Below, in pieces: positions 462-64,000 of a DNA stretch of 64,000 nucleotides. The stretch covers positions 64,513 to 128,512 of the forward strand of contig JBAZYN010000002.1 in the NCBI GenBank assembly GCA_041659325.1. Reading direction: 5' to 3'. Position numbers and translations under genes: made by a program. The stretch is from Candidatus Shapirobacteria bacterium (lineage in GTDB: Bacteria > Patescibacteriota > Microgenomatia > UBA12405). Below the pieces are notes generated by a model. That model did no database searches and was not told the origin of the DNA. It worked only from the letters and a program-made list of their open reading frames with translations. Numbering within the stretch: the stretch's first letter is position 1; each line of letters starts with the position of its first letter.

Positions 462-546
462 GGAGGGTGGGCAGGACGGTAATGCGCTGGTTTCGAAAAC
501 CAGTTCCGGCAACGGATAACAGGTTCGACCCCTGTACCCTCCGCCA
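462..546 (+). tRNA. tRNA-Ser (anticodon CGA), type II with long variable arm
   Basis: Acceptor GGAGGGT/ACCCTCC, anticodon stem CTGGT/ACCAG with loop TTCGAAA, 15-nt variable hairpin TTCCGGCAACGGATA, T-arm ACAGG-TTCGACC-CCTGT, encoded CCA. Confidence 0.8.
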
Positions 547-700
547 CGTAAAATTTGCTTTGCAAATTAACGTGGCTTGAAACGTCAATTTTGTGAAACA
601 AAATTATACGTTTTGCCTATAATTCAAACGTTGCTTGAAACGTGAACGTAATATTCTACGAAGTAGAATAAACGTTCTTACGTTTCGCCAATTTCGCGAA
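539..700 (+). repeat. Repeat R copy A. Conserved sequence downstream of tRNA-Ser, starting in the tRNA 3' end (CTCCGCCACGTAAAATTTGCTTTGCAAATTAA) and followed by two ACGT-rich hairpins
   Basis: Near-identical 40 nt plus a homologous about 50-nt palindrome also present at 11319-11480, with compensatory changes in the stems. Confidence 0.7.
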
Positions 701-10550: not shown

Positions 10551-10586
10551 CTCAAACAGTATAAAGTCTAAAAGTCTAAAAATATT

Positions 10587-11238: not shown

Positions 11239-11326
11239 GGAGAGGTCGGATAGTGGTTCATTCCACAGACCTGGAAAGTCTGCGCTCCAAAAGGGCTCGC
11301 GGGTTCGAATCCCGCCCTCTCCGCCA
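11239..11326 (+). tRNA. tRNA-Ser (anticodon GGA), type II
   Basis: Acceptor GGAGAGG/CCTCTCC, anticodon stem CAGAC/GTCTG with loop CTGGAAA, long variable arm, T-arm GCGGG-TTCGAAT-CCCGC, encoded CCA. Confidence 0.8.
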
Positions 11327-11480
11327 CGTAAAATTTGCTTTGCAAATTAATGTGGCTGAGACGTGAACGTAATATTTTACGAAGTAAAATTAACGTTCTT
11401 ACGTCTCGCCTAATTAACTCAACGCTGCTGGAACGTAAATTTCGAAGAAATTGTACGTTACCGCCAATTTAAAATCGCAT
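11319..11480 (+). repeat. Repeat R copy B, downstream of tRNA-Ser(GGA)
   Basis: CTCCGCCACGTAAAATTTGCTTTGCAAATTAATGTGGCT followed by the palindrome GAGACGTGAACGTAATATTTTACGAAGTAAAATTAACGTTCTTACGTCTC; homologous to 539-700. Confidence 0.7.
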
Positions 11481-12854: not shown

Positions 12855-14150
12855 ATGAGTTCTAAAGATCGACTTTTAATTGGGCAAGGTCCCGGACATC
12901 AAGACCAGCTTATCTCTATTACTGACCGACTCAGAGCAAGCATGACTAATGAAGAAGTTGTCTTTAGCCCGGCTTCTCAGGAGGTGATCAATAGTTTTGC
13001 CCAAGCGAATCAACAGCGTTTTCCTTCTATCTTAGATACTTGTATTGAAGCCTATGAGGCGTCTCTGGGAAGCCAACCTCCCGGGCATGAAAAATCCCAT
13101 ATTGTTGAAAATTTGAACCTAGCCCTCCAGATTTTTGGTCAATACCGCACCTCCGGAAATCCACTCACTAAAGTTGAAGAGTTAGAAGTCGCTCTGGCTA
13201 TCATCGGACATGATTTAGGTAGATACGCCGAACCATCTTTACCTAAAATTAACGAGAAGGATTTGGAAATACTCGGACCAATTTTTCTTGGTAGAAAATT
13301 TCTTCGCGACTTAAATATCCCGGATGAACTCGGCAATCGCATTCTTTATGATATAGCCTCTGCCTCAAATCCAAGGACTGAGCACCGCACAGCAAATATT
13401 GTCCATAGGTGTGATCGCATCCAGCTAGGTGGAGCTGTGATGATTCCTCGTCTGGTCGGACTTGGTATTGGTGAACTCGGGCCGGAAGGCTGTGATTTTA
13501 TCGTGCATCCACCAGAAGTGGCCGGGCAATTTCGGGATAATCTGCCTCATATTTACAAAGAGAGAACCTTGGCGTTACTTACTCGGTTGGAATTTTGGAT
13601 GAGAAATGTTTATCCACCTACTCGCCCGGAGGAATCTGTTAACGATGATCGAAGGAAACTAGAGACCGCCGTTCTGTTAATGCTTGGAATGCATGGCATG
13701 GATGATGTGTACAAAGAAGTATTTGCCCCGGAACTTGGCCTTGTTTCCGATCCTAAGCCATTTAAAAGACCTATTGATCCTGAATTATTCAAAGCGGCCA
13801 GGGAAGAACATACCGCCTTTATATCCCAGGTTAATCTTTCTTCTTATAGTGACCAAGGTTCATTAGAACTGGCTACGAGATTAATGGAAACCGAAAATGT
13901 CACTATTTTACCGGATTTCGCTGATCACTTTCGGGAGCGGTTGGAAAAAAGTTCTCCTGAAACTAACCGTAATCGTTGGTTGGTTATGCTTTACTCCCTT
14001 GAGACTCGACACCAAAAAAGGTTGGCTGATATTTCTCGTCTTCAACATAAGGAACAAGGGGGGGCTTTGGACCCTCTCGAGTCTTGGATCAGAGCAGAAC
14101 TCGTCGACCGAGAAGAAAAGTATTCTGCTATTTTCGAACCTTCAACTTAG
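12855..14150 (+). CDS. hypothetical protein, possible HD-domain hydrolase
   Basis: 431 aa; an H...HD...H...D pattern (AIIGHDLGR, HRCDRIQ) is suggestive only. Confidence 0.4.
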   Translation: MSSKDRLLIGQGPGHQDQLISITDRLRASMTNEEVVFSPASQEVINSFAQANQQRFPSILDTCIEAYEASLGSQPPGHEKSHIVENLNLALQIFGQYRTSGNPLTKVEELEVALAIIGHDLGRYAEPSLPKINEKDLEILGPIFLGRKFLRDLNIPDELGNRILYDIASASNPRTEHRTANIVHRCDRIQLGGAVMIPRLVGLGIGELGPEGCDFIVHPPEVAGQFRDNLPHIYKERTLALLTRLEFWMRNVYPPTRPEESVNDDRRKLETAVLLMLGMHGMDDVYKEVFAPELGLVSDPKPFKRPIDPELFKAAREEHTAFISQVNLSSYSDQGSLELATRLMETENVTILPDFADHFRERLEKSSPETNRNRWLVMLYSLETRHQKRLADISRLQHKEQGGALDPLESWIRAELVDREEKYSAIFEPST

Positions 14151-14201
14151 TAGTTGCCAACTATCCAAGGTTGTGAATTTAGGTGCCAAACGGCTTTGAG
14201 T

Positions 14202-14264
14202 CATAAAACAGGTTCTAACTGCGTGGTTCGATAAACTCATCATTATAATCAACAGTTCGCCGCC
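14202..14264 (+). repeat. S-repeat copy 1 (box A CATAAAACAGGTTCTAACTGCGT; degenerate or duplicated box B ...CAGTTCGCCGCC)
   Basis: Member of an 8-copy intergenic repeat family. Confidence 0.7.
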
Positions 14265-18651: not shown

Positions 18652-18778
18652 GGCAATAATAACTCCTCCTATTGCACCAAGAATGGCCGTAATTTTTGGA
18701 TTAGATAACAGCTCGTTTAATATATGAATATTATAGACCTTACTTATATTGGGTTGTTGCTAGATTGTATGGTATAGA

Positions 18779-18815
18779 CATAAAATAGGTTCTAACTGTT
18801 CAACGGTTTATCGTC
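18779..18815 (+). repeat. S-repeat copy 2 (box A intact, box B degenerate)
   Basis: CATAAAATAGGTTCTAACTG...GGTTTATCG. Confidence 0.6.
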
Positions 18816-19738: not shown

Positions 19739-19805
19739 ATAGAACGATTATACTAAGTTGTTGACGATACTAGGGCAAATGAATCTAAATTGTGATCCGA
19801 AAGGT

Positions 19806-19842
19806 TCATAAAATAGGTTCTAACTGCGTAAATGGTTGCCCG
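19806..19842 (+). repeat. S-repeat copy 3
   Basis: CATAAAATAGGTTCTAACTGCGT AA ATGGTTGCCCGG. Confidence 0.7.
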
Positions 19843-27039: not shown

Positions 27040-27052
27040 CAGCTGACAGTTG

Positions 27053-27091
27053 TATAAAACAGGTTCTAACTTGCGTCAATGGTTGCTCGCC
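27053..27091 (+). repeat. S-repeat copy 4
   Basis: TATAAAACAGGTTCTAACTTGCGT CA ATGGTTGCTCGCC, 14 nt after the NUDIX stop. Confidence 0.7.
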
Positions 27092-28954: not shown

Positions 28955-28992
28955 GTGGATTTATTATAAATCCAAACTTACGATATATTGTT

Positions 28993-29051
28993 AATATAAT
29001 AGGTTCTAACAGCGTAGTTTCGCTGACTAACAGCAAGTCATTGGTTTGCTG
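28993..29051 (+). repeat. S-repeat copy 5 (long-spacer form)
   Basis: AATATAATAGGTTCTAACAGCGT, 22-nt spacer, CATTGGTTTGCTGC; abuts the ATG at 29063. Confidence 0.65.
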
Positions 29052-29062
29052 CAGTAAGACAA

Positions 29063-29764
29063 ATGATAAAACTTAACCAAGAAAATAAAAAATATTGGCA
29101 AAAATATAAGACAGGAGAAATTCCTTCCGTGCCAAATTTACCGCCAACAACCTTACTAGATAATATCCATGGGCCAATTTTAGATATAGGCACGGGTGAC
29201 GGAGCCTTGGCGGAACAACTTGCAGTACAGGGCCATGAGGTTGAAGCGATAGATCTTGCCGAGAACATAGTCCGGGCGAATATGACAAGAAACTCAAAAG
29301 TTCGATATTCGCTTCAAGATATTACTCAGGGAACAAATTTTGATGGGGCATATTTTGATTTGGCAATATTTCGATTCACATTAACTAACATTCACAAAGA
29401 ATCGTGGAGAGAATTGGGAGTGGAGATTAATAGAATATTGAAACCGACAGGGAAAGTGTGGATTCTTGAACCTTTGGTTTCAGAAAGCTACCGACGAAGA
29501 TATCTTTTAGCATCCAAATTTATTGACGAGCCTCATTGTGTATATGTTTTTAAGGATAAGGAACTTGCTGAAAAAATTAACACTGAGGCTAAATTAAAAC
29601 AAGCACTGGCTAATGATTTGGTAAGCAGAATAGTGAAACACTATACGATTGATGAGTTAAAAAGTATTTTCAACACTTTAAAACTTAACGACCATAGGGT
29701 GATAGAAATTATATCCCCTTCCGGATTTATTATTAAAACATTTGAAGGGGTGTTTTCAAAATAA
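29063..29764 (+). CDS. class I SAM-dependent methyltransferase
   Basis: Motif I ILDIGTGDGALAEQL. Confidence 0.7.
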   Translation: MIKLNQENKKYWQKYKTGEIPSVPNLPPTTLLDNIHGPILDIGTGDGALAEQLAVQGHEVEAIDLAENIVRANMTRNSKVRYSLQDITQGTNFDGAYFDLAIFRFTLTNIHKESWRELGVEINRILKPTGKVWILEPLVSESYRRRYLLASKFIDEPHCVYVFKDKELAEKINTEAKLKQALANDLVSRIVKHYTIDELKSIFNTLKLNDHRVIEIISPSGFIIKTFEGVFSK

Positions 29765-29819
29765 AATAGGTTCTAATTATGTAGTTCGGCAGGCTCACTA
29801 CAAGTCAATGGTTCGCCGC
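29761..29819 (+). repeat. S-repeat copy 6 (long-spacer form)
   Basis: ATAAAATAGGTTCTAATTATGT, 23 nt, CAATGGTTCGCCGC; the stop codon of the upstream gene lies inside box A. Confidence 0.7.
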
Positions 29820-34061: not shown

Positions 34062-34589
34062 ATGGTTGAAACTCATCCGTTTGGAAGCTTTGTGCCTAAG
34101 AATTGTCAGTTTTTGTTTTTGGGAACTTTTACAGCCAAAGTAGATGACCCATCATATGATTGGTTTTTTACATCGAAAAGAAACCAATTTTGGATAATAA
34201 TGACAGAAGTTTACGGGATCAAATTGACAAACAAAAAAGAAAAGGAAAATCTATTTACAGAGCTAAAAATGGCGATAACTGACATTATTCTTCAATGTGA
34301 GCGAAGCGAAAATACGAACGCTGATAATAATTTGATCAATATGGTTTTTAATGTAAAAGTTATAAATAAGATTATTACGGAAAACAATATAGAAACGATC
34401 TTTTTTTCCAGTCGGATGGCGGAAAAATTGTTTAAGAATAATTTCAAAGAAATAAAAATAAAGTTCCCTCAAATTAATTTTGTGACATTGCCTTCATCTT
34501 CTCCAAGATATGCAGCGATGACAAAATTAGAAAAAATCAGATATTACAAGGAGTTGCTACCAAAGTTGAACTCATTAAATAGGTTTTAA
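34062..34589 (+). CDS. hypothetical protein, possibly uracil-DNA glycosylase superfamily
   Basis: C-terminal LPSSSPRYA resembles UDG motif B (HPSP..); weak; leaderless start in GATATAATTAGCCATGG. Confidence 0.3.
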   Translation: MVETHPFGSFVPKNCQFLFLGTFTAKVDDPSYDWFFTSKRNQFWIIMTEVYGIKLTNKKEKENLFTELKMAITDIILQCERSENTNADNNLINMVFNVKVINKIITENNIETIFFSSRMAEKLFKNNFKEIKIKFPQINFVTLPSSSPRYAAMTKLEKIRYYKELLPKLNSLNRF

Positions 34590-34632
34590 TTACGTAATTC
34601 AACAGGTTCACTATAAATCGATGGTTCGCCAC
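34573..34632 (+). repeat. S-repeat copy 7 (long-spacer form)
   Basis: CATTAAATAGGTTTTAATTACGT, 25 nt, ATGGTTCGCCAC; the upstream gene's stop lies inside box A. Confidence 0.7.
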
Positions 34633-52266: not shown

Positions 52267-54312
52267 CTATCTGACGACCACAGTTTTTCTGATTACAGCA
52301 GCGGCGTAGTCAAAGATAGTGGTAGCAGGGACCCGATAGTTTTTGATGGAGGCCTGATCACCGACTTCAACCATGACGACATAGGTGCTACCAATTTCGG
52401 CGGTGGTCGGGATTGTCCAGGTACGACTGTTTATAGAGCCTGCTTTGCCCAAATCACCGGCGTTTTCTGCAGTGACGTTGCTTTTGTAGACTTCGATTTC
52501 TACCGGCTTGTAGCGATCGTAACAACTCATAGCATAGACTCCGTCACCATCGGTGGCGCCCCAGACTTTGTAGGTAACACCCTTTAGCAGTCTTGGCCTG
52601 ACATCAAAGTCAAAGTCAATCTTTCTGGTGTTGTTGGTAACCAGCATTGACCTTTGGCCCCCCTTGGAACAAGCGACCGGGTTGGTCGGGAGGTTGTACA
52701 TGTGATGAGCCTCATTGGGCCTGGAATCAAGATCGTAGTTATTGTCGGAGACTAAGCCGGCGCTATCGGTAATGATGACGTGGGCGCTCCAGGCAGCTGA
52801 GCTAGCATTTTTGAAAGGAATGCTTAAGCTCGAAACGACCATGTCTTGGGTAGGAACAATAGTACCGATCTGGGTCCAGTATTGATTGGACATCTTTTTG
52901 ACCGGATATAGTTTACTGCCATCATGATTGGCACAGCCGTAACCGATGGCTACAGCCAAAGAGTCGATGGCATCCTGCCTGTAGTAATTAAAACGGTAGG
53001 TTAATGGCGCATGAGTAGAAACACCATTAGCCTTGAGGGTAATGGTTTCACCGGGGGCCGGATTCTCGTTGCTAACGGTAAAATCGGTAACCCTAACGAG
53101 ACGGTCACAGGAGCTACAGCAGCCTGCCCCTATCGGTAAGTAACTACACTTGACATCGCCACCGTTTGACATGTCCGGCTCTCTATATGACATAGTGCAT
53201 TTACAGTCTTCACAAACCGGATACTTTGGCGGCGGGGGCGTGGGAGTCTTTGTCGGAGTTATGGTGGTCCTGGGAATGGTGGGAGTAACGGTGGTGGGAG
53301 AACACACACAGGCCGGATAATCAGGACAGCTTCGATTTCGACATCGCATGGTACCAGTAACGGTATCGGTGTAACAATGACCAGTGGAACATTGGGCATC
53401 GTAACTACAAGATGCGTTACAACTTAATTTGGTAGTCGGAGGTGTGGGAGTCTTTGTCGGGGTGATGGTTGTAGGACAGCTACAAGCGGTGTAATCCGGA
53501 CAACTTCGATTACGACATCGCTTGGTGCCGGTGATGGTGTCGGTATAACAGTAGCCAGTGGAGCATTGGGCATCGGAACTACAAGACTGATTACAGCCAA
53601 CCTGACACTGACAGTCTGCGTAATCCGGACAATTTCGATTTCGACAAACCATAGCACCAACGATTGGATCGATAGCACAATAGCCGGTGGAACATTGGGC
53701 GTCGGCACTACAAGATGCGCTGCAACTTAATTTGGTGGTGGGAGGAGTAGGAGTGGAGGTAACGGTGGTGGTACCACTACAAGTGGCGCTGTCCCACTTA
53801 CAACCTTTTTTGGCACAACTCCAGCCATTACCACTGGCATCAACCTGATAAACTCCACATTTGACACTTGAAGTAAGACTGTATTTTCCGGGACCATAAC
53901 TTTTGGTGGTAGTGGCACAGCCGACACCCTGCTGGGCGTCTGCCTGACACTGCTCTTTGGTTTTGCCCGGATAATATTCCTGCTTACAGTTGGCGATAGC
54001 AAGATTGACGGTACCACCAGTAACAGTAAAGCTGTCACAATTACCGGTGATGGTAACTCCACTTGTAGAAGTATTACATTGACACTTACCGCTTATCCAG
54101 GCGCAACCGCTACCGGCATGGGACCAACAGTTGGACTCAGAGGTGGCACCATCACAAGTCGTCGAAACACAACCCGCGGCGAGATTACGGGTGTCTTGAT
54201 TTGATTGAGACAGTTTTGTGGCGATGGGGATGGCCAGAGCCATGATAACCAGACCAATTATTAGCGGGATTTGTGTTAAACCAAATTGATTGAATAGATT
54301 TTTTATCTTCAT
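52267..54312 (-). CDS. large Cys- and Thr-rich surface/secreted protein with three approximately 45-aa cysteine-knot-like repeats and TPTPPTTK linkers
   Basis: N-terminal signal-anchor; repeats CSxDAQCSTGYCxxDxxxGxxRCRNRSCPDYxxCxC three times; C-terminal beta-rich approximately 330-aa domain. Confidence 0.55.
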   Translation of the reverse strand: MKIKNLFNQFGLTQIPLIIGLVIMALAIPIATKLSQSNQDTRNLAAGCVSTTCDGATSESNCWSHAGSGCAWISGKCQCNTSTSGVTITGNCDSFTVTGGTVNLAIANCKQEYYPGKTKEQCQADAQQGVGCATTTKSYGPGKYSLTSSVKCGVYQVDASGNGWSCAKKGCKWDSATCSGTTTVTSTPTPPTTKLSCSASCSADAQCSTGYCAIDPIVGAMVCRNRNCPDYADCQCQVGCNQSCSSDAQCSTGYCYTDTITGTKRCRNRSCPDYTACSCPTTITPTKTPTPPTTKLSCNASCSYDAQCSTGHCYTDTVTGTMRCRNRSCPDYPACVCSPTTVTPTIPRTTITPTKTPTPPPPKYPVCEDCKCTMSYREPDMSNGGDVKCSYLPIGAGCCSSCDRLVRVTDFTVSNENPAPGETITLKANGVSTHAPLTYRFNYYRQDAIDSLAVAIGYGCANHDGSKLYPVKKMSNQYWTQIGTIVPTQDMVVSSLSIPFKNASSAAWSAHVIITDSAGLVSDNNYDLDSRPNEAHHMYNLPTNPVACSKGGQRSMLVTNNTRKIDFDFDVRPRLLKGVTYKVWGATDGDGVYAMSCYDRYKPVEIEVYKSNVTAENAGDLGKAGSINSRTWTIPTTAEIGSTYVVMVEVGDQASIKNYRVPATTIFDYAAAVIRKTVVVR

Positions 54313-56456: not shown

Positions 56457-58382
56457 GTGAAAACGCATAGCGGAGTGAGATGGAATCTTGATGATATATT
56501 GCCAAGAGACAAGTTTGATGAGCTTGAGAGGGAAATCGAAGAAGCACTAAAGAAAATCGACGAGTATGTGGCGGAATTGTCAAACGGGATGAGCTTGGAA
56601 AAATTTCGGGAAATAACGGAATATTGCGAGACCCTCAGCCAAAAATTATCCAGATTGATAACTTTGCCGGAGCTGATTGAGTCAACCGATCAAAAGGACC
56701 GAAAGGCTAAAATATTAAAAAGCAGAGCTAATAATATCTCCCTAAAATACACGGATAGGGTAAGGAAAATTTATCATTGGGTAAAAGGGTTTAACGGCGG
56801 ACTGGATGAAGTAAACGCCCAAAGGCTGTTTGCCGGGGTACCTGATTTGAAATATGTTTTGGATTATTCAAGAAAAGCGGCAAAACATAGTTTGTCTGAG
56901 AAGGAAGAAAGCATTGTTGACAACAAGGATGTGAGCGGTGTTGAAGCGCTGGCGGATCTGCGAACGATAATAGAGACGGAGTTTAAATACAGTCTAAAAG
57001 TCTTAAAGTCGAAAAGTCTTAAAGTCGAAAAGCCATGCCTGCCCACCCCGGCGGGTAAACCGGCAGGCAGGTCTGATAGTCTTTTGCCTGAGGCGGATCA
57101 GCCGATGGTTGAGAAAGTTATAGAAACACAGGCGGAGCTGACGGCTTTGTTCCACTCGCCAAAAGCAGAGTTAAGAGAGGCGGCATACCGGGCACTTTTA
57201 GAGAAACATGAAGAAAATCTGGATAAATTTTTTTTGATTTATCAGGCAGTGGCGAAAGACTGGGATTACGAGGCAAAAATCAGGGGATATGCCTCCCCGC
57301 TTTCGATGAGAAATTTTGGCAACCAAGTTAGTGACAAATCGGTTGAGGTGCTGCTGAGAGTGGTGGCAAAAAACAAAGGGGTTTTTAAAAACTATTTTGA
57401 GTATAAGGCCAAAAAACTTGGGGTTAAAAAATTAAGCAGGTTTGATTTGTATGCACCCATCAGTAAAAAGTCTGAAAGCCATGCCTGCCGGCAGGCAGGT
57501 CTGAAAGTCTTAAAGTCTAAAAGTCTTAAAGTAATAAGTTTTGAGGAAGCGGAGAAAATGGTCTTGGGGGCGTTTGAGGAGTTTAGCCCAAGATTTGCTG
57601 ATTTTGGAAGAAAAATTATTGAAGAAAATCATATTGATTCGCACCCGAGAGTGGGAAAAAGAAGCGGAGCTTTTTGTGCTAACGTCGGACCGGCGGTTAC
57701 TCCGTATGTAATGCTGAACCATACCGGAAGATTTAGAGATGTGACGACTTTGGCACACGAATTGGGCCATGGAATTCACAGCCTTTATGCCAACTCCCAC
57801 TATCCGTCTAGCCAACACGCCGGATTGACATTGGCAGAGACAGCGTCGACTTTTGGAGAGATGATTTTGTTTGAAAAAATGTTTAAAGAAACTAAGGGTA
57901 AGCAAGAGAAAGAGGAGATGTTGGTTGAAAAAATAGCGGATTCTTATGCAACTATAATGAGGCAGTCATATTTTATTGATTTTGAAATAAAGGCACACGA
58001 GACAGTTCAGGAAGGGATAAGTGCCGACGAATTGTCGAAGCTCTGGCTGAGTACCTTAGAGGATCAATTTGGCGAAAGTGTTTTTGTGGACAAAGTTTTT
58101 GGAAGTGAGTGGTCCTATATCCCCCATATCGTCGAAACTCCCTTTTATTGCTACGCATATAGCTTCGGAGAGCTTTTGTCGTACTCACTTTTTTCAAGAT
58201 ATAAAAAAGAGGGAAAAAGTTTTGTGCCAAAAATAGAAAAAATATTGACAGCCGGCGGGTCGGAGGATCCGGGATTGATTTTGAAAAATGTCGGGATTGA
58301 TATCGAGTCGGAGCAGTTTTGGCAGGAAGGGTTTGAACTTATAAAAGAGTGGAGTAGCCGATTAAGTGATAATGACTTCTGA
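56457..58382 (+). CDS. pepF: oligoendopeptidase F (M3 family) carrying two in-frame repeat-element insertions
   Basis: HELGHGIH zinc motif; approximately 50 extra aa encoded by repeat elements at 56991-57076 and 57466-57538. Confidence 0.85.
   Translation: MKTHSGVRWNLDDILPRDKFDELEREIEEALKKIDEYVAELSNGMSLEKFREITEYCETLSQKLSRLITLPELIESTDQKDRKAKILKSRANNISLKYTDRVRKIYHWVKGFNGGLDEVNAQRLFAGVPDLKYVLDYSRKAAKHSLSEKEESIVDNKDVSGVEALADLRTIIETEFKYSLKVLKSKSLKVEKPCLPTPAGKPAGRSDSLLPEADQPMVEKVIETQAELTALFHSPKAELREAAYRALLEKHEENLDKFFLIYQAVAKDWDYEAKIRGYASPLSMRNFGNQVSDKSVEVLLRVVAKNKGVFKNYFEYKAKKLGVKKLSRFDLYAPISKKSESHACRQAGLKVLKSKSLKVISFEEAEKMVLGAFEEFSPRFADFGRKIIEENHIDSHPRVGKRSGAFCANVGPAVTPYVMLNHTGRFRDVTTLAHELGHGIHSLYANSHYPSSQHAGLTLAETASTFGEMILFEKMFKETKGKQEKEEMLVEKIADSYATIMRQSYFIDFEIKAHETVQEGISADELSKLWLSTLEDQFGESVFVDKVFGSEWSYIPHIVETPFYCYAYSFGELLSYSLFSRYKKEGKSFVPKIEKILTAGGSEDPGLILKNVGIDIESEQFWQEGFELIKEWSSRLSDNDF
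56991..57076 (+). repeat. composite repeat element: (AAAGTCTT/AAAGTCG)n 8-nt tandem plus GC-rich palindrome CCATGCCTGCC...GGCAGGCAGGTCTG
   Basis: Related copies at 57466-57538, 62491-62515 (palindrome) and 10563-10581 (tandem only). Confidence 0.75.
57466..57538 (+). repeat. composite repeat element, second copy in pepF (palindrome then tandem)
   Basis: ATGCCTGCCGGCAGGCAGGTCTG followed by AAAGTCTTAAAGTCTAAAAGTCTTAAAGT. Confidence 0.75.
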
Positions 58383-62457: not shown

Positions 62458-64000
62458 ATGAATACAAAATCCCTCTCGGCTACGCCGTTTCTCCCTGCCT
62501 GCCGGCAGGCATGGCCTTTGAGGAAAGGGAGACTTGAACAAAGATATATAACAATAAAAGGAGCGAGAGAGAATAACTTAAAAAATATAGATTTGGCCAT
62601 ACCGAGAAATAAAATTGTGTGTTTTGTGGGGGTATCGGGGTCGGGCAAATCGACGATTGCTTTTGATATCATTGCCCGAGAAGGGCAAAGGCAATATTTT
62701 GAGAGTTTGAGCAGTTTGGCGAGAAGATATCTTTCAAAAAGCAACCGGCCACAGGTAGACGAAATAAAAGGGATATCGCCGACGATTATTATTAGCCAGG
62801 ACAGAGTGTATCCCAGTCCGCGATCGACGGTGGGGACGGTGACAGAGGCCTATACCTACTTAAGATTGTTGTATTCGAGAGTCGGTCAACCTAGTTTTGA
62901 TTCGTCGTATTTCTCGTTTAATCATCCGTTGGGCGCCTGTCCAAGATGCAAGGGTTTAGGAAGGGCGATGGAGATTGATATCAATAGGCTAGTAGATGAG
63001 AATAAAAGCTTGAATGAGGGGGCGATATTGTATAGCAATTGGCGGGTGGGAAGTATGTGGTGGAAAATTATTAGGGCGACAAATTATTTTGAGATGGATA
63101 AAAAAGTAAAGGATTATACGACCCAAGAAAGGGAAAAGCTTCTCTATGCCAAAAAGCAGGTGGTGATTGATAAAAGCGGGATGGATAATGTGATTAATTG
63201 GACGTTTAAGGGAGTGGTGACTCACCTCTTGGGGAGGGGAACAAGTGTTTATCGAAAAGCAAATAGTGAAGAAGTTAAATATTTTAGATATGTTGACTGC
63301 CCGGAATGCCAGGGGTGGAGATTAAGAAAAGAATCCTTGGCAGTAAAGATAAACGGCTTAAATATTGGCGAAGTGGCGAATATGCCGATAAGCGAAGCAG
63401 TCAATTTTATTGAAAAAATTGATCATAGAAACGCAACGGTGATAAAACCGAGGTTGATAGAGCAACTTAGGTATTTGACAGACGCGGGAATTGGTTATCT
63501 GTCGCTTAACCGACAGACAAATACGTTGTCGGGAGGCGAAGCGCAGAGAGTTAAGCTAGCACGACAACTTGGAAGTGATTTGATCGAAACAATATATGTG
63601 TTAGACGAACCAACGGCGGGACTACACCCGAGAGATTTGGAAATGGTGGTGAAAAATTTGAGAAGATTAAGAGATGGTGGTAACACAGTAGTGGTGGTAG
63701 AACACGATAAAACAATTATCGAGGCGGCTGATTATATGGTGGAAGTAGGGCCAGGGGGAGGCAAGATGGGAGGAAAAATTGTGTTTGCAGGAACAAAAGA
63801 TGAGTTTTTGAGAAGTGAAACATTAACGGCACAATACTTAAACCCACCCCCAACCCCTCCCTTGATAAAGGAGGGGCGTAAACCAATAAATTATTTAAAA
63901 ATTGTTAATGCCAAAAGAAATAATTTAAAAAATATTAATGTTGACATACCACTGCGGATGATGGTGGGGTTGACGGGAGTATCGGGGGCAGGGAAAAGCT
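62458..64000 (+). CDS. uvrA: excinuclease ABC subunit A (5' partial, runs off the window) with a repeat-encoded N-terminal extension
   Basis: ITIKGARENNLKNIDLAIPRNKIVCFVGVSGSGKST matches the UvrA N-terminus; the first approximately 22 codons span the palindrome at 62491-62515. Confidence 0.85.
   Translation, partial: MNTKSLSATPFLPACRQAWPLRKGRLEQRYITIKGARENNLKNIDLAIPRNKIVCFVGVSGSGKSTIAFDIIAREGQRQYFESLSSLARRYLSKSNRPQVDEIKGISPTIIISQDRVYPSPRSTVGTVTEAYTYLRLLYSRVGQPSFDSSYFSFNHPLGACPRCKGLGRAMEIDINRLVDENKSLNEGAILYSNWRVGSMWWKIIRATNYFEMDKKVKDYTTQEREKLLYAKKQVVIDKSGMDNVINWTFKGVVTHLLGRGTSVYRKANSEEVKYFRYVDCPECQGWRLRKESLAVKINGLNIGEVANMPISEAVNFIEKIDHRNATVIKPRLIEQLRYLTDAGIGYLSLNRQTNTLSGGEAQRVKLARQLGSDLIETIYVLDEPTAGLHPRDLEMVVKNLRRLRDGGNTVVVVEHDKTIIEAADYMVEVGPGGGKMGGKIVFAGTKDEFLRSETLTAQYLNPPPTPPLIKEGRKPINYLKIVNAKRNNLKNINVDIPLRMMVGLTGVSGAGKS
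62491..62515 (+). repeat. GC-rich palindrome CTCCCTGCCTGCCGGCAGGCATGG inside the uvrA 5' coding region
   Basis: Same core (GCCTGCCGGCAGGC) as the pepF inserts. Confidence 0.7.

What the first reader, a model, noticed from the sequence alone, without database searches (positions are those of the whole stretch)
56991..57538. Selfish palindrome-plus-tandem repeat elements inserted in frame, twice, inside pepF
pepF carries two inserts absent from M3 oligoendopeptidases. The first, 56991-57076, has (AAAGTCTT)n followed by CCATGCCTGCC-caccccggcgggtaaa-CCGGCAGGCAGGTCTG. The second, 57466-57538, has ATGCCTGCCGGCAGGCAGGTCTG followed by (AAAGTCTT)n. Both keep the reading frame and add the peptides SLKVLKSKSLKVEKPCLPTPAGKPAGRSD and SESHACRQAGLKVLKSKSLKV. 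The same palindrome core occurs in frame at the uvrA N-terminus (62491-62515). The tandem part also occurs intergenically at 10563-10581. This is the behaviour described for Rickettsia palindromic elements, which are tolerated inside proteins. I have not seen it described for this kind of low-GC, Patescibacteria-like genome.
Basis: seen in the sequence. Interest (0 to 1): 0.7.

Follow-up and report, generated by a model that had tools for sequence, protein, structure and literature searches.

The report
Nested mini-palindromes inside a peptidase gene
Two surface loops of a housekeeping peptidase gene hold nested copies of very short repeated DNA modules, and one of them, a 21-base palindrome, turns up letter for letter inside essential genes of bacteria from many phyla.

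Summary
pepF (56457-58382) carries two in-frame inserts that about 118 orthologues lack. Both fall in the only internal low-confidence loops of a good structure model.

They are not one "palindrome-plus-tandem" element. They are nests of independent modules:
- Arrays of the octamer AAAGTCTN. The site-1 array is shared with a relative 74% identical in protein.
- A 21-nt near-palindrome, CCATGCCTGCCGGCAGGCAGG. It equals 7 codons and has no stop codon in any of the six frames. The relative lacks it. At site 1 it carries a further 18-nt hairpin in its centre.
- A decayed 30-nt double hairpin (the "GGSASGG" module).

The exact 20-base core of the palindrome occurs in at least 79 places in GTDB species genomes from many phyla, where about 1 is expected by chance. 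Flanks are unrelated. In DnaK it adds exactly 7 residues; GatA, LepA, Clp, GlmM and YbeY also carry it in frame. No target duplication is seen.

The closest known kind is REPs found inside genes (which include some Rickettsia RPEs). This palindrome lacks the GTAG or CGTC tag, and the window encodes no RAYT or GIY-YIG enzyme.

Best reading: selfish or neutral REP-like hairpin DNA tolerated in loops. The enzyme that moves it is unknown. Verdict: a new variant of a known kind.

The parts
56457..58382 (+). pepF, an M3 oligoendopeptidase F of 641 aa from the GTG start (the JGI gene call is 635 aa). HELGH active-site motif at residues 434-438.
   Evidence: Pfam PF01432, E = 2.8e-50. About 4200 homologues; typical length 583 aa. 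Matches solved PepF structures 3CE2 and 2QR4.
56991..57032 (+). Octamer array 1, (AGTCNNAA)x5.2, encoding SLKVLKSKSLKVEK (residues 179-192).
   Evidence: Tandem Repeats Finder: period 8 with 5.2 copies, or period 16 with 96% matches. An orthologous array is present in relative L001.
57033..57071 (+). Type-A palindrome, CCATGCCTGCC...GGCAGGCAGG, split by a nested insert. The whole 39-nt block is absent from the relative. Encodes PCLPTPAGKPAGR (residues 193-205).
   Evidence: The DNA alignment to L001 shows a clean 39-nt gap. Pattern search. Coordinates and reading frames.
57044..57061 (+). Nested 18-nt GC-rich hairpin, CACCCCGGCGGGTAAACC, sitting in the centre of the palindrome.
   Evidence: Comparison of the site-1 copy with the intact 21-mer at site 2. 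Other genomes also carry inserts at the same central position (L107, L079).
57072..57086 (+). Continuation of the octamer array to the right of the palindrome (TCTGATAGTCTTTTG).
   Evidence: Aligns to GTCTGAAAGTCTTCCG of L001.
57083..57112 (+). Decayed copy of the 30-nt double-hairpin module (consensus TCCGCCAAAGGCGGATCCGCCTCCGGCGGA). Encodes LPEADQPMVE.
   Evidence: GGCGGATCAGCC is shared with two sites in L001 pepF. Intact copies sit at the same loop in pepF of P0039 and P0059. Both L001 copies fold with z = -3.8 to -3.9.
57465..57478 (+). Short octamer remnant to the left of the second palindrome (AAAAAGTCTGAAAG).
57479..57499 (+). Intact 21-nt type-A palindrome, CCATGCCTGCCGGCAGGCAGG. With its flanks it encodes SHACRQAG (residues 341-348).
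   Evidence: A 6-bp stem with a CCGG loop is predicted at -7.1 kcal/mol, z = -1.7.
57500..57533 (+). Octamer array 2, (GTCTNAAA)x4.2, encoding LKVLKSKSLKV. It matches array 1 at 28 of 30 bases and is read in the same frame.
   Evidence: Tandem Repeats Finder. Identity between the two arrays.
62494..62514 (-). Third type-A palindrome, in reverse orientation, upstream of or at the very start of uvrA. It is enclosed by an outer inverted repeat, TCTCCCT (62490-62496) and AGGGAGA (62526-62532).
   Evidence: (I3: 96% complementary to the site-2 copy). The same outer inverted repeat encloses hairpin modules in L001, at pepF site 2 and near position 13118. The start codon question is covered.
10563..10581 (+). 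Intergenic 2.4-copy octamer array (AAAGTCTA) between tRNA-Arg and the start of a NUDIX gene.

Best explanation
The two pepF inserts are nests of at least three kinds of very short, non-autonomous repeat modules. They accumulated stepwise in two permissive loops.

The modules:
1. Arrays of an 8-nt unit, AAAGTCTN. These are dispersed in this lineage at gene boundaries and inside genes. Only one reading frame per strand is free of stop codons, so they always encode KVLKSKSLKV or, in reverse, RLLDFKTF.
2. A 21-nt GC-rich near-palindrome (type A). It equals the perfect 20-nt palindrome CCTGCCTGCCGGCAGGCAGG plus one A. It is inserted after a G, without target duplication.
3. A 30-nt double hairpin (the "GGSASGG" module).

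What is shown:
- The order of events at site 1: the array is older and the palindrome is younger.
- The exact size of the palindrome insertion and the absence of target duplication.
- The palindrome and the double hairpin are multiples of 3 nt in length and have no stop codon in any of the six frames.
- Both pepF sites are low-confidence loops in the structure model.
- The palindrome lies inside local tandem repeats and in the loops of other hairpins more often than control positions do.

What is inferred:
- The modules are selfish or neutral REP-like DNA hairpins.
- They are moved in trans by a hairpin-specific single-strand DNA enzyme encoded elsewhere, of the HUH/RAYT-like or GIY-YIG/Ssn-like type.
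- They enter DNA that is transiently single-stranded.
- The arrays then change length by replication slippage.
- Copies survive inside genes only where they keep the frame and the protein fold tolerates a disordered loop.
For: Insertions are real and sit in loops:
- Alignments.
- PepF model: pLDDT 84, pTM 0.83. The only internal segments with pLDDT below 50 are residues 186-215 and 339-356, which are the inserts.
- Solved PepF 3CE2 shows a gap at exactly insert 2.

Stepwise nesting:
- 39-nt gap in L001 inside a shared array.
- At site 2 the relative carries a different module.
- The site-1 loop independently carries the double hairpin in P0039 and P0059. P0069 carries a CGTC-type REP with a nested hairpin at a third site.

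Dispersal of the palindrome:
- 79 exact copies of the 20-base core in the first 120 stretches of the GTDB scan, where about 1 is expected by my calculation. Flanks are unrelated. Several hosts are on long contigs (4.38 Mb Bacteroidales, 1.1 Mb Gottesmanbacteria, 671 kb Saccharibacteria) and some come from long-read assemblies.
- Decayed copies with point changes exist.
- The insert is exactly 7 residues in DnaK compared with solved structures, and 7 residues in the RadA ATPase domain. GatA, LepA, Clp, GlmM and YbeY carry the same 7-residue peptides in frame; I compared those only by eye.
- An empty and a filled copy of the same tRNA fragment in L180 differ by exactly 20 nt, with no duplication.

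Target context: direct repeats of 8 nt or more span the insert in 16% of copies against 1.9% of controls. Inverted repeats do so in 5% against 0.7%. Position -2 is G in 63% of copies. The register is the same (AAAG^TCT) in 4 of 4 array contexts.

Dispersal of the arrays: 22 metagenome stretches, several from the relative's sample. They are in frame in TrmD and MiaA.

Reading frames.

Precedent: REPs inside genes, including uvrA, and RPE-4 and RPE-6 being short CGTC-tagged REPs (PMC3733652). Hairpin repeats conserved across phyla and tied to a small nuclease (PMC11893778).
Against: - No mobilising enzyme was identified. Pfam scans of about 66 window ORFs found no Y1 transposase, RAYT, GIY-YIG protein or other transposase.
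- No gene family recurs near the palindrome in 76 loci.
- A motif search found small GIY-YIG genes in only 2 of 120 GTDB loci and one viral locus.
- The element has neither the GTAG nor the CGTC tag and does not match the published SRM motif.
- All but one of the exact GTDB copies come from metagenome-assembled genomes. The one isolate hit (Cupriavidus, 70% GC) looks like chance. There is no exact copy in PLSDB plasmids and no type-A copy in IMG/VR. Culture-independent confirmation is therefore the only kind available.
- Identity of a 21-mer across phyla is not what vertically inherited REP/RAYT systems show.
- The copy number in the source genome could not be measured. The source contig is not in the searchable collections.
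- The same register and orientation in all four array contexts is also compatible with descent of a composite unit.
Confidence: 0.6

Rival explanations
1. A single composite element (octamer array, palindrome, octamer array) transposes as one unit and landed twice in pepF.
For: The two arrays match at 28 of 30 bases and are read in the same frame. The palindrome sits at the same register and orientation (AAAG^TCT) in window sites 1 and 2, in L122 and in L133.
Against: The relative has the site-1 array without the palindrome. About 75 palindrome copies have no octamers nearby. Most arrays have no palindrome. The octamer contains a single G, so a rule of "insert after G" is enough to explain the constant register.
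Confidence: 0.12
2. The inserts are kept because they help the host. Either the DNA or RNA hairpins act in regulation (pausing, processing, supercoiling sites), or the lysine-rich disordered loops give PepF a new surface property.
For: The site-1 array has persisted since the split from a relative 74% identical in protein. REPs are reported to bind gyrase and to act after transcription (PMC3733652). Borg tandem repeats are proposed to create useful disordered regions (PMC9879509, listed; I did not read it).
Against: The same modules occur in both orientations and in several reading frames, in unrelated genes, in tRNA genes and between genes. About 118 of 120 PepF orthologues work without them. 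The model gives the inserts no structure.
Confidence: 0.1
3. The 8-nt arrays are contingency loci. Gain or loss of one unit shifts the reading frame and switches pepF on and off (phase variation).
For: The unit length is not a multiple of 3, and both arrays lie upstream of the catalytic HELGH motif.
Against: The units are imperfect (79-88% matches at period 8). The array is retained across deep divergence. Three independent assemblies of the relative encode an identical PepF. pepF is a housekeeping gene. The same arrays also sit in TrmD and MiaA.
Confidence: 0.05
4. Everything arose locally, by slippage plus template-switch formation of quasi-palindromes, with no mobility.
For: The palindrome is built from CCTG/CAGG tetranucleotide repeats, which are prone to form hairpins. 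It often has direct repeats on both flanks.
Against: An identical 20- or 21-mer at more than 100 unrelated sites in many phyla and in viral contigs cannot arise repeatedly from local sequence. Filled and empty site pairs show a clean insertion.
Confidence: 0.04
5. The palindrome is a sequencing or assembly artefact that enters metagenome assemblies at low-complexity sites.
For: Nearly all exact copies are in metagenome-assembled genomes. The length, 21 nt, equals a common smallest k-mer size used by assemblers. Many copies sit in repeats.
Against: It is present in assemblies made with IDBA-UD, MEGAHIT, SPAdes and CLC, and in long-read assemblies (MFD, 'tig' and polypolish records). Mutated copies and copies carrying nested inserts exist. 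Copies are placed in loops of conserved proteins. Type A is absent from IMG/VR, which is also built from metagenome assemblies.
Confidence: 0.03

Closest known systems
REPs found inside genes, in the GTAG- and CGTC-tagged REP superfamilies (Di Nocera, De Gregorio and Rocco 2013, PMC3733652)
   Same: These are 20-40 bp imperfect GC-rich palindromes. They are dispersed and often nested or grouped. Some lie in frame inside genes and add short peptides. uvrA and other repair genes are frequent hosts, and copies at N-termini may really lie outside the gene. Here the hosts include uvrA, and RadA in a relative's sample.
   Different: This palindrome has no GTAG or CGTC tag. No RAYT is encoded in the window. 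About half of the sampled copies lie in long ORFs, whereas REPs are mostly extragenic. The sequence is identical across phyla rather than specific to a species or genus.
Rickettsia palindromic elements (RPEs)
   Same: Repeats that can form palindromes are inserted in frame in housekeeping genes and tolerated.
   Different: From my own knowledge, classical RPE-1 type elements are about 100-150 bp and restricted to Rickettsia. Here the modules are 21, 30 and 18 nt plus 8-nt arrays, and the host is a Patescibacteria-like genome. According to PMC3733652, only the short RPE-4 and RPE-6 are REP-sized, and those carry the CGTC tag.
NTS/dRS3 and Ssn-related motifs (SRM) with the GIY-YIG single-strand nuclease SsnA (Chenal et al. 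2025, PMC11893778)
   Same: These are short hairpin repeats whose sequence is conserved over very wide phylogenetic distances. They are recognised as single-stranded DNA. The 21-mer is found inserted in the loops of such hairpins: once the insert is removed, L046 and L121 read ATTCCC-N8-GGGAAT. In L180 a type-B copy lies 17 nt from a small GIY-YIG gene.
   Different: The 21-mer does not match the SRM search motif. There is no GIY-YIG gene in the window. No statistical association with GIY-YIG genes was found.
Mobile GC clusters, double-hairpin elements and PstI palindromes of fungal mitochondrial DNA (cited from my own knowledge; I did not check this here)
   Same: These are short GC-rich palindromes that spread in AT-rich compact genomes. 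Some are optional in-frame inserts in protein genes, for example yeast var1.
   Different: They are organellar, differ in sequence, and are restricted to a lineage.
Tandem repeats in Borg elements that create disordered protein regions (PMC9879509)
   Same: Tandem nucleotide repeats inside ORFs add disordered peptide segments.
   Different: According to that paper's abstract, Borg repeats arise independently at each site. Their unit lengths inside ORFs are multiples of 3 (my recollection; I did not read the paper). Here one 8-nt unit is shared between many loci and genomes, and the frame is kept only by the total length.

Membership tests
Rickettsia palindromic elements (RPE) | Length about 100-150 bp with long-range palindromic potential (classical RPE-1 to RPE-3 type; from my own knowledge) | tested here: not met
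   The modules are 21 nt (39 nt with the nested insert), 30 nt, and 8-nt arrays of 32-42 nt.
Rickettsia palindromic elements (RPE) | In-frame insertion in ORFs with no stop codon, absent from orthologues | tested here: met
Rickettsia palindromic elements (RPE) | The inserted peptide lies on the protein surface, away from the catalytic core | tested here: inconclusive
   The AlphaFold model places both inserts in segments with pLDDT below 50: the tip of a beta-hairpin and a loop. Solved PepF shows a gap at insert 2. I did not measure the distance to the active site, and there is no experimental structure.
Rickettsia palindromic elements (RPE) | Sequence membership in an RPE family, and restriction to Rickettsia | not tested
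   No RPE consensus sequences were available to compare. The host here is Patescibacteria-like: the best pepF hits are Shapirobacteria and Microgenomates.
REP (repetitive extragenic palindromes; GTAG and CGTC superfamilies) | A 20-40 bp imperfect palindrome | tested here: met
   The element is 21 nt. It contains a 16-nt perfect palindrome, and the A/G mismatch just outside it is the same in all three window copies.
REP (repetitive extragenic palindromes; GTAG and CGTC superfamilies) | A GTAG or CGTC tetranucleotide tag at one end | tested here: not met
   The consensus flanks are (G)C-CATG...CAGG-(A)(A). Neither tag is present.
REP (repetitive extragenic palindromes; GTAG and CGTC superfamilies) | A cognate RAYT (Y1 transposase) in the genome, often flanked by REPs | tested here: inconclusive
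   None was found among about 66 window ORFs scanned with Pfam. No gene family recurs as a neighbour in 76 loci. The rest of the source genome could not be reached.
REP (repetitive extragenic palindromes; GTAG and CGTC superfamilies) | High copy number per genome, mostly extragenic | tested here: inconclusive
   There are 3 copies in the 64 kb window. There are 8 palindrome places (7 distinct loci; copies within 2 edits of type A, so type B is included) in 111 kb of loci from the relative's sample, but those loci were selected for carrying arrays. 42 of 79 GTDB copies lie in open frames of 150 aa or more.
Ssn-related motifs (SRM/NTS) | Match to HGTCWYN(0-2)YYVSBRHN(0-5)WNVSBRGN(0-2)RNCYNB | tested here: not met
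   A regular-expression scan found no match in the window and none over the three palindromes.
Ssn-related motifs (SRM/NTS) | An ssnA-like single-domain GIY-YIG gene nearby or in the genome | tested here: inconclusive
   None in the window. 2 of 120 GTDB loci have one, 0.4-1.9 kb from the copy. In L180 one lies 17 nt from a type-B copy.
MITE | Terminal inverted repeats, a fixed target-site duplication, and a length of about 50-500 bp | tested here: not met
   No duplication is seen in DnaK, in the L180 empty/filled pair or at pepF site 1. The length is 20-21 nt.
Phase-variable simple-sequence contingency locus | Near-perfect short tandem repeats whose copy number varies between strains and shifts the frame | tested here: not met
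   The units match at only 79-88%. Three assemblies of the relative encode an identical PepF. No population read data were available.

The most novel reading that the evidence does not exclude
The 20/21-nt palindrome may be a pan-bacterial "nano-element": the smallest horizontally spreading mobile DNA described so far.

On this reading it inserts after a G into transiently single-stranded DNA (hairpin loops, slipped tandem arrays, tRNA genes) without target duplication. It is driven by a conserved enzyme that has not been identified.

The 21-nt type A would be a derivative of the 20-nt perfect palindrome that is compatible with coding sequence. That would let it persist inside essential genes (DnaK, RadA, GatA, LepA, PepF) of compact genomes such as those of Patescibacteria.

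It would be one of several such module families (the GGSASGG double hairpin, the octamer arrays) that nest in one another.
Probability: 0.3. Interest if true: 0.85.

Novelty: new variant of a known kind. Interest (0 to 1): 0.66.

Why it matters
If the reading holds, it has four consequences.

- Selfish short palindromes that live inside genes, known so far from Rickettsia and some Proteobacteria, also exist in ultra-small Patescibacteria genomes.
- It identifies a module that explains recurrent 7-residue peptides (AMPAGRQ, LPAGRH, HACRQAG, PACRQAG) in conserved proteins of uncultured bacteria. That matters for annotation, for alignments and for phylogenomic marker genes.
- A 21-mer that is identical across phyla poses a concrete question: what moves it? 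Phylogenetic profiling can address this directly.
- The nesting pattern (hairpins inside the loops of other hairpins, and inside slipped repeats) points to a single-strand DNA targeting mechanism.

Tried and rejected
1. Looking for a mobilising gene.
- Pfam scans of about 66 window ORFs found only housekeeping functions.
- All-against-all clustering of ORFs in 76 palindrome loci found no recurrent neighbour.
- Motif searches for GIY-YIG and HUH proteins gave 3 isolated GIY-YIG hits and no HUH hits.

2. Recovering the source contig for a genome-wide count.
- The exact PepF protein is not in the contig index.
- The metagenome scan did not return a 335 kb contig.

3. Literature searches for the literal sequences found nothing relevant.

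4. Rfam found only the four tRNAs in the window.

5. A strict test that the flanks become an SRM once the palindrome is removed gave 0 of 79. By eye, several healed flanks match the looser dRS3 pattern.

6. My first flank statistic, periodicity over 64 nt, was too stringent and showed little. I replaced it with a longest-common-substring test.

7. A search for long elements that use the half-sites as terminal repeats found that the solo half-sites are decayed full copies.

8. Plasmids contain no exact copy.

9. The octamer array and the double hairpin gave 0 hits in IMG/VR.
Full report
**Observation**

pepF is the ORF 56457-58382 on the + strand. It is an M3 peptidase (PF01432, E = 2.8e-50) with HELGH at residues 434-438.

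- The 14-mer GCCTGCCGGCAGGC occurs twice; 0.03 is expected.
- The split copy at 57038-57067 is a third; 0.01 is expected.
- The octamer motif occurs 10 times; 1.04 is expected.
- Tandem Repeats Finder ranks the arrays at 56991-57032 and 57499-57532 as the highest-scoring tandem repeats in the window.
- The window is 41% GC. The palindromes are the only GC-rich islands with 8-bp perfect stems.

**Are they insertions?**

Typical PepF orthologues are 583 aa; this one is 641 aa. In an alignment of 120 homologues, only the window protein and its nearest relative, P0002 (74% identity), have long insertions at the two sites.

An AlphaFold model (pLDDT 84, pTM 0.83) has only two internal segments with pLDDT below 50:
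- Residues 186-215, at the tip of a beta-hairpin formed by strands 178-183 and 217-222.
- Residues 339-356, a loop before the helix that starts at residue 362.

These segments are the inserts. The alignment to solved PepF 3CE2 opens a 17-residue gap at exactly insert 2.

**Anatomy**

I aligned the window pepF DNA against that of the relative (L001).

At site 1:
- The relative has the octamer array and a second motif, CCGCCAGAGGCGGATCAGCCTTTGGCTGA.
- It lacks a clean 39-nt block, 57033-57071. So the array is ancestral and the palindrome is a later insertion inside it.
- The 39 nt are the 21-mer CCATGCCTGCCGGCAGGCAGG (found intact at site 2, 57479-57499) plus an 18-nt hairpin nested in its centre.
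- The stretch 57083-57112 is a decayed copy of a 30-nt double hairpin.

Intact copies of that double hairpin (TCCGCCAAAGGCGGATCCGCCTCCGGCGGA, peptide SAKGGSASGG) sit in the same loop of pepF in two other lineages, P0039 and P0059. P0069 carries a CGTC-type REP with a nested hairpin at a third site.

At site 2 the relative carries the double hairpin inside an outer inverted repeat, TCTCCCTT...AAGGGAGA. The window has the palindrome plus octamers there instead. The same outer inverted repeat encloses the window's uvrA copy.

The two window arrays match at 28 of 30 bases and are read in the same frame.

**Reading frames**

The 21-mer and the 30-mer are multiples of 3 nt in length and have no stop codon in any of the six frames. 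The octamer array is open in only one frame per strand. This explains why it encodes the same peptide everywhere: KVLKSKSLKV, or RLLDFKTF in reverse.

**uvrA**

The copy at 62494-62514 is in reverse orientation. Eight UvrA homologues (48-86% identical) all start 2 to 6 residues before the conserved I-x-I-x-GA motif. The window ORF from ATG 62458 would add 27 residues that none of them has. The next in-frame start, TTG 62518, sits 3 nt beyond the palindrome. "In frame at the N-terminus" is therefore unproven.

**Distribution of the palindrome**

Of the matches, 79 are the uninterrupted 20-mer. By my calculation about 1 is expected: 596 Gb, two strands, divided by 4^20.

Hosts include:
- Many Patescibacteria classes.
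- Bacteroidota, including a 4.38 Mb long-read contig.
- Ignavibacteriota and Thermodesulfovibrionia.
- Omnitrophota, Margulisbacteria/Saganbacteria, Lindowbacteria and Elusimicrobia.
- Desulfobacterota and uncultured Gammaproteobacteria.

Features of the copies:
- Flanks are unrelated. Only -1 C (86%) and -2 G (63%) are conserved, with +1 and +2 rich in A.
- 42 of 79 lie in open frames of 150 aa or more, in both orientations.
- In DnaK the insert is exactly AMPAGRQ, between D and GE of a conserved turn, when compared with solved structures. No residues are duplicated.
- GatA, LepA, a Clp ATPase, GlmM and YbeY carry the same kind of 7-residue peptide in frame; I compared these by eye only. RadA carries a 7-residue insert too.
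- Direct repeats of 8 nt or more span the insert in 16% of copies against 1.9% of control positions. Inverted repeats do so in 5% against 0.7%.
- Several copies sit in the loops of dRS3/NTS-like hairpins.
- Mutated and decayed copies exist. This argues for real, evolving DNA.

A perfect 20-nt palindrome, type B (CCTGCCTGCCGGCAGGCAGG), co-occurs with type A in the relative's sample. Type A is type B plus one A.

- Type B is found in 35 stretches of IMG/VR, mostly in GC-rich contigs.
- One copy forms the long variable arm of a tRNA-Met gene (L173).
- In L180, an empty and a filled copy of the same tRNA fragment differ by exactly 20 nt.
- Type A has no hit in IMG/VR and no exact hit in plasmids.

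**Distribution of the arrays**

AAAGTCTTAAAGTCNAAAAGTC is found in 22 metagenome stretches with GC from 0.27 to 0.61. Several come from the sample that holds the relative.

- Most arrays are at gene boundaries, often as inverted pairs of arrays.
- Some are in frame inside TrmD and MiaA.
- In 111 kb of loci from that sample there are about 20 array hits and 8 palindrome places. This set is biased, because the loci were selected for carrying arrays.
- In L133 the 21-mer sits in an array at the same register, AAAG^TCT, as in the window and in L122.

**Mechanism**

I found no transposase, RAYT or GIY-YIG gene in the window. No neighbouring gene recurs elsewhere. The element fails the GTAG/CGTC tag test and the SRM motif test.

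What is shown is clean insertion of 20 or 21 nt, without duplication, after a G, with a preference for sequences that can loop out.

What is inferred is that a hairpin-specific single-strand DNA enzyme acts in trans. This is by analogy with REP/RAYT systems and with NTS/Ssn (PMC3733652; PMC11893778).

Why the sequence is identical across phyla remains unexplained.

**Comparison and verdict**

REPs inside genes are known. uvrA is a frequent host, and RPE-4 and RPE-6 are REP-sized CGTC-tagged elements (PMC3733652). So the kind of thing is not new.

What I could not find described:
- The untagged 21-mer and its identity across phyla.
- Its exact 7-codon behaviour inside essential genes.
- The nesting with octamer arrays and the double hairpin.
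- The Patescibacteria-like host.

I rate it a new variant of a known kind, with interest 0.66.

Noticed in passing
window 14194-14225, 18771-18802, 19799-19830, 27045-27071, 28985-29052, 29757-29819, 34570-34632: A motif, ATAAAATAGGTTCTAAC(TGCGTA), recurs at 6-7 sites, apparently between ORFs. At three of them the similarity extends to about 60 nt. It may be a promoter or leader, or another dispersed repeat. Rfam finds nothing there.
   Followed up: no
window 511-694 and 11291-11415: Two different tRNA-Ser genes are each followed by the same roughly 120-nt pair of AT-rich hairpins (CCACGTAAAATTTGCTTTGCAAATTAACGTGG and TGAAACGTGAACGTAATATT...ACGTTTCGCC), at 82-88% identity. Each tRNA-Ser has a tRNA-Arg upstream, directly adjacent at the first locus.
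   Followed up: no
window 52267-54312 (- strand): A 681-aa ORF with no Pfam match contains internal repeats of about 168 nt (53302-53772). It may be a repetitive surface protein.
   Followed up: no
L173 2239-2330 (IMG/VR contig): ARAGORN calls a 92-nt tRNA-Met gene. The 20-nt perfect palindrome (2284-2303) lies between the anticodon arm and the T arm, where it forms a long variable arm. L150 has a related but truncated copy.
   Followed up: partly
L180 494-860 (IMG/VR contig): A small Ssn-like GIY-YIG gene (552-816) is flanked by direct repeats of a tRNA 5' half. The upstream copy carries the 20-nt palindrome in its D-loop and the downstream copy does not. This gives a clean filled and empty pair. 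It is also the only close palindrome-to-GIY-YIG adjacency I saw.
   Followed up: partly
L136 around 6858 (metagenome contig Ga0247842_10002398): A RadA/Sms gene carries two modules in frame: IGGSASGRDGDG between the zinc finger and the ATPase domain, and PACRQAG inside the ATPase domain.
   Followed up: partly
L148 (pepF of P0069), residues about 105-125: A third pepF loop carries a CGTC-type REP on the reverse strand (CGTCATTGCGAGGA...GCAATCTC) with a further hairpin (CCCGAAAACTTTCGGG) nested in its loop. It is translated as EIAASPESFRGPRNDE.
   Followed up: partly
L169, L176, L177 (IMG/VR contig 3300037242_000417, 29.5 kb): There are at least six type-B palindromes in one viral contig. Some sit in the loop of an outer hairpin, GGGTGCCCCATCCTYG...CRAGGGTGGGTC. 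In other copies of that hairpin the loop instead holds TCCGCCGCGGCGGA. This suggests the loop contents are interchangeable.
   Followed up: partly
L127, L134, L138, L145 (metagenome contigs): AAAGTCNN octamer arrays often occur as inverted pairs a few tens of nt apart between genes, including in genomes of 61% GC. They would form long hairpins with periodic mismatches.
   Followed up: no
L041 1633-1760 (Candidatus Zipacnadia MAG, 68% GC): The two palindrome halves alternate with a 17-nt spacer (CTACGAACGACGTTGGT) in a tandem array with a period of about 36 nt.
   Followed up: no
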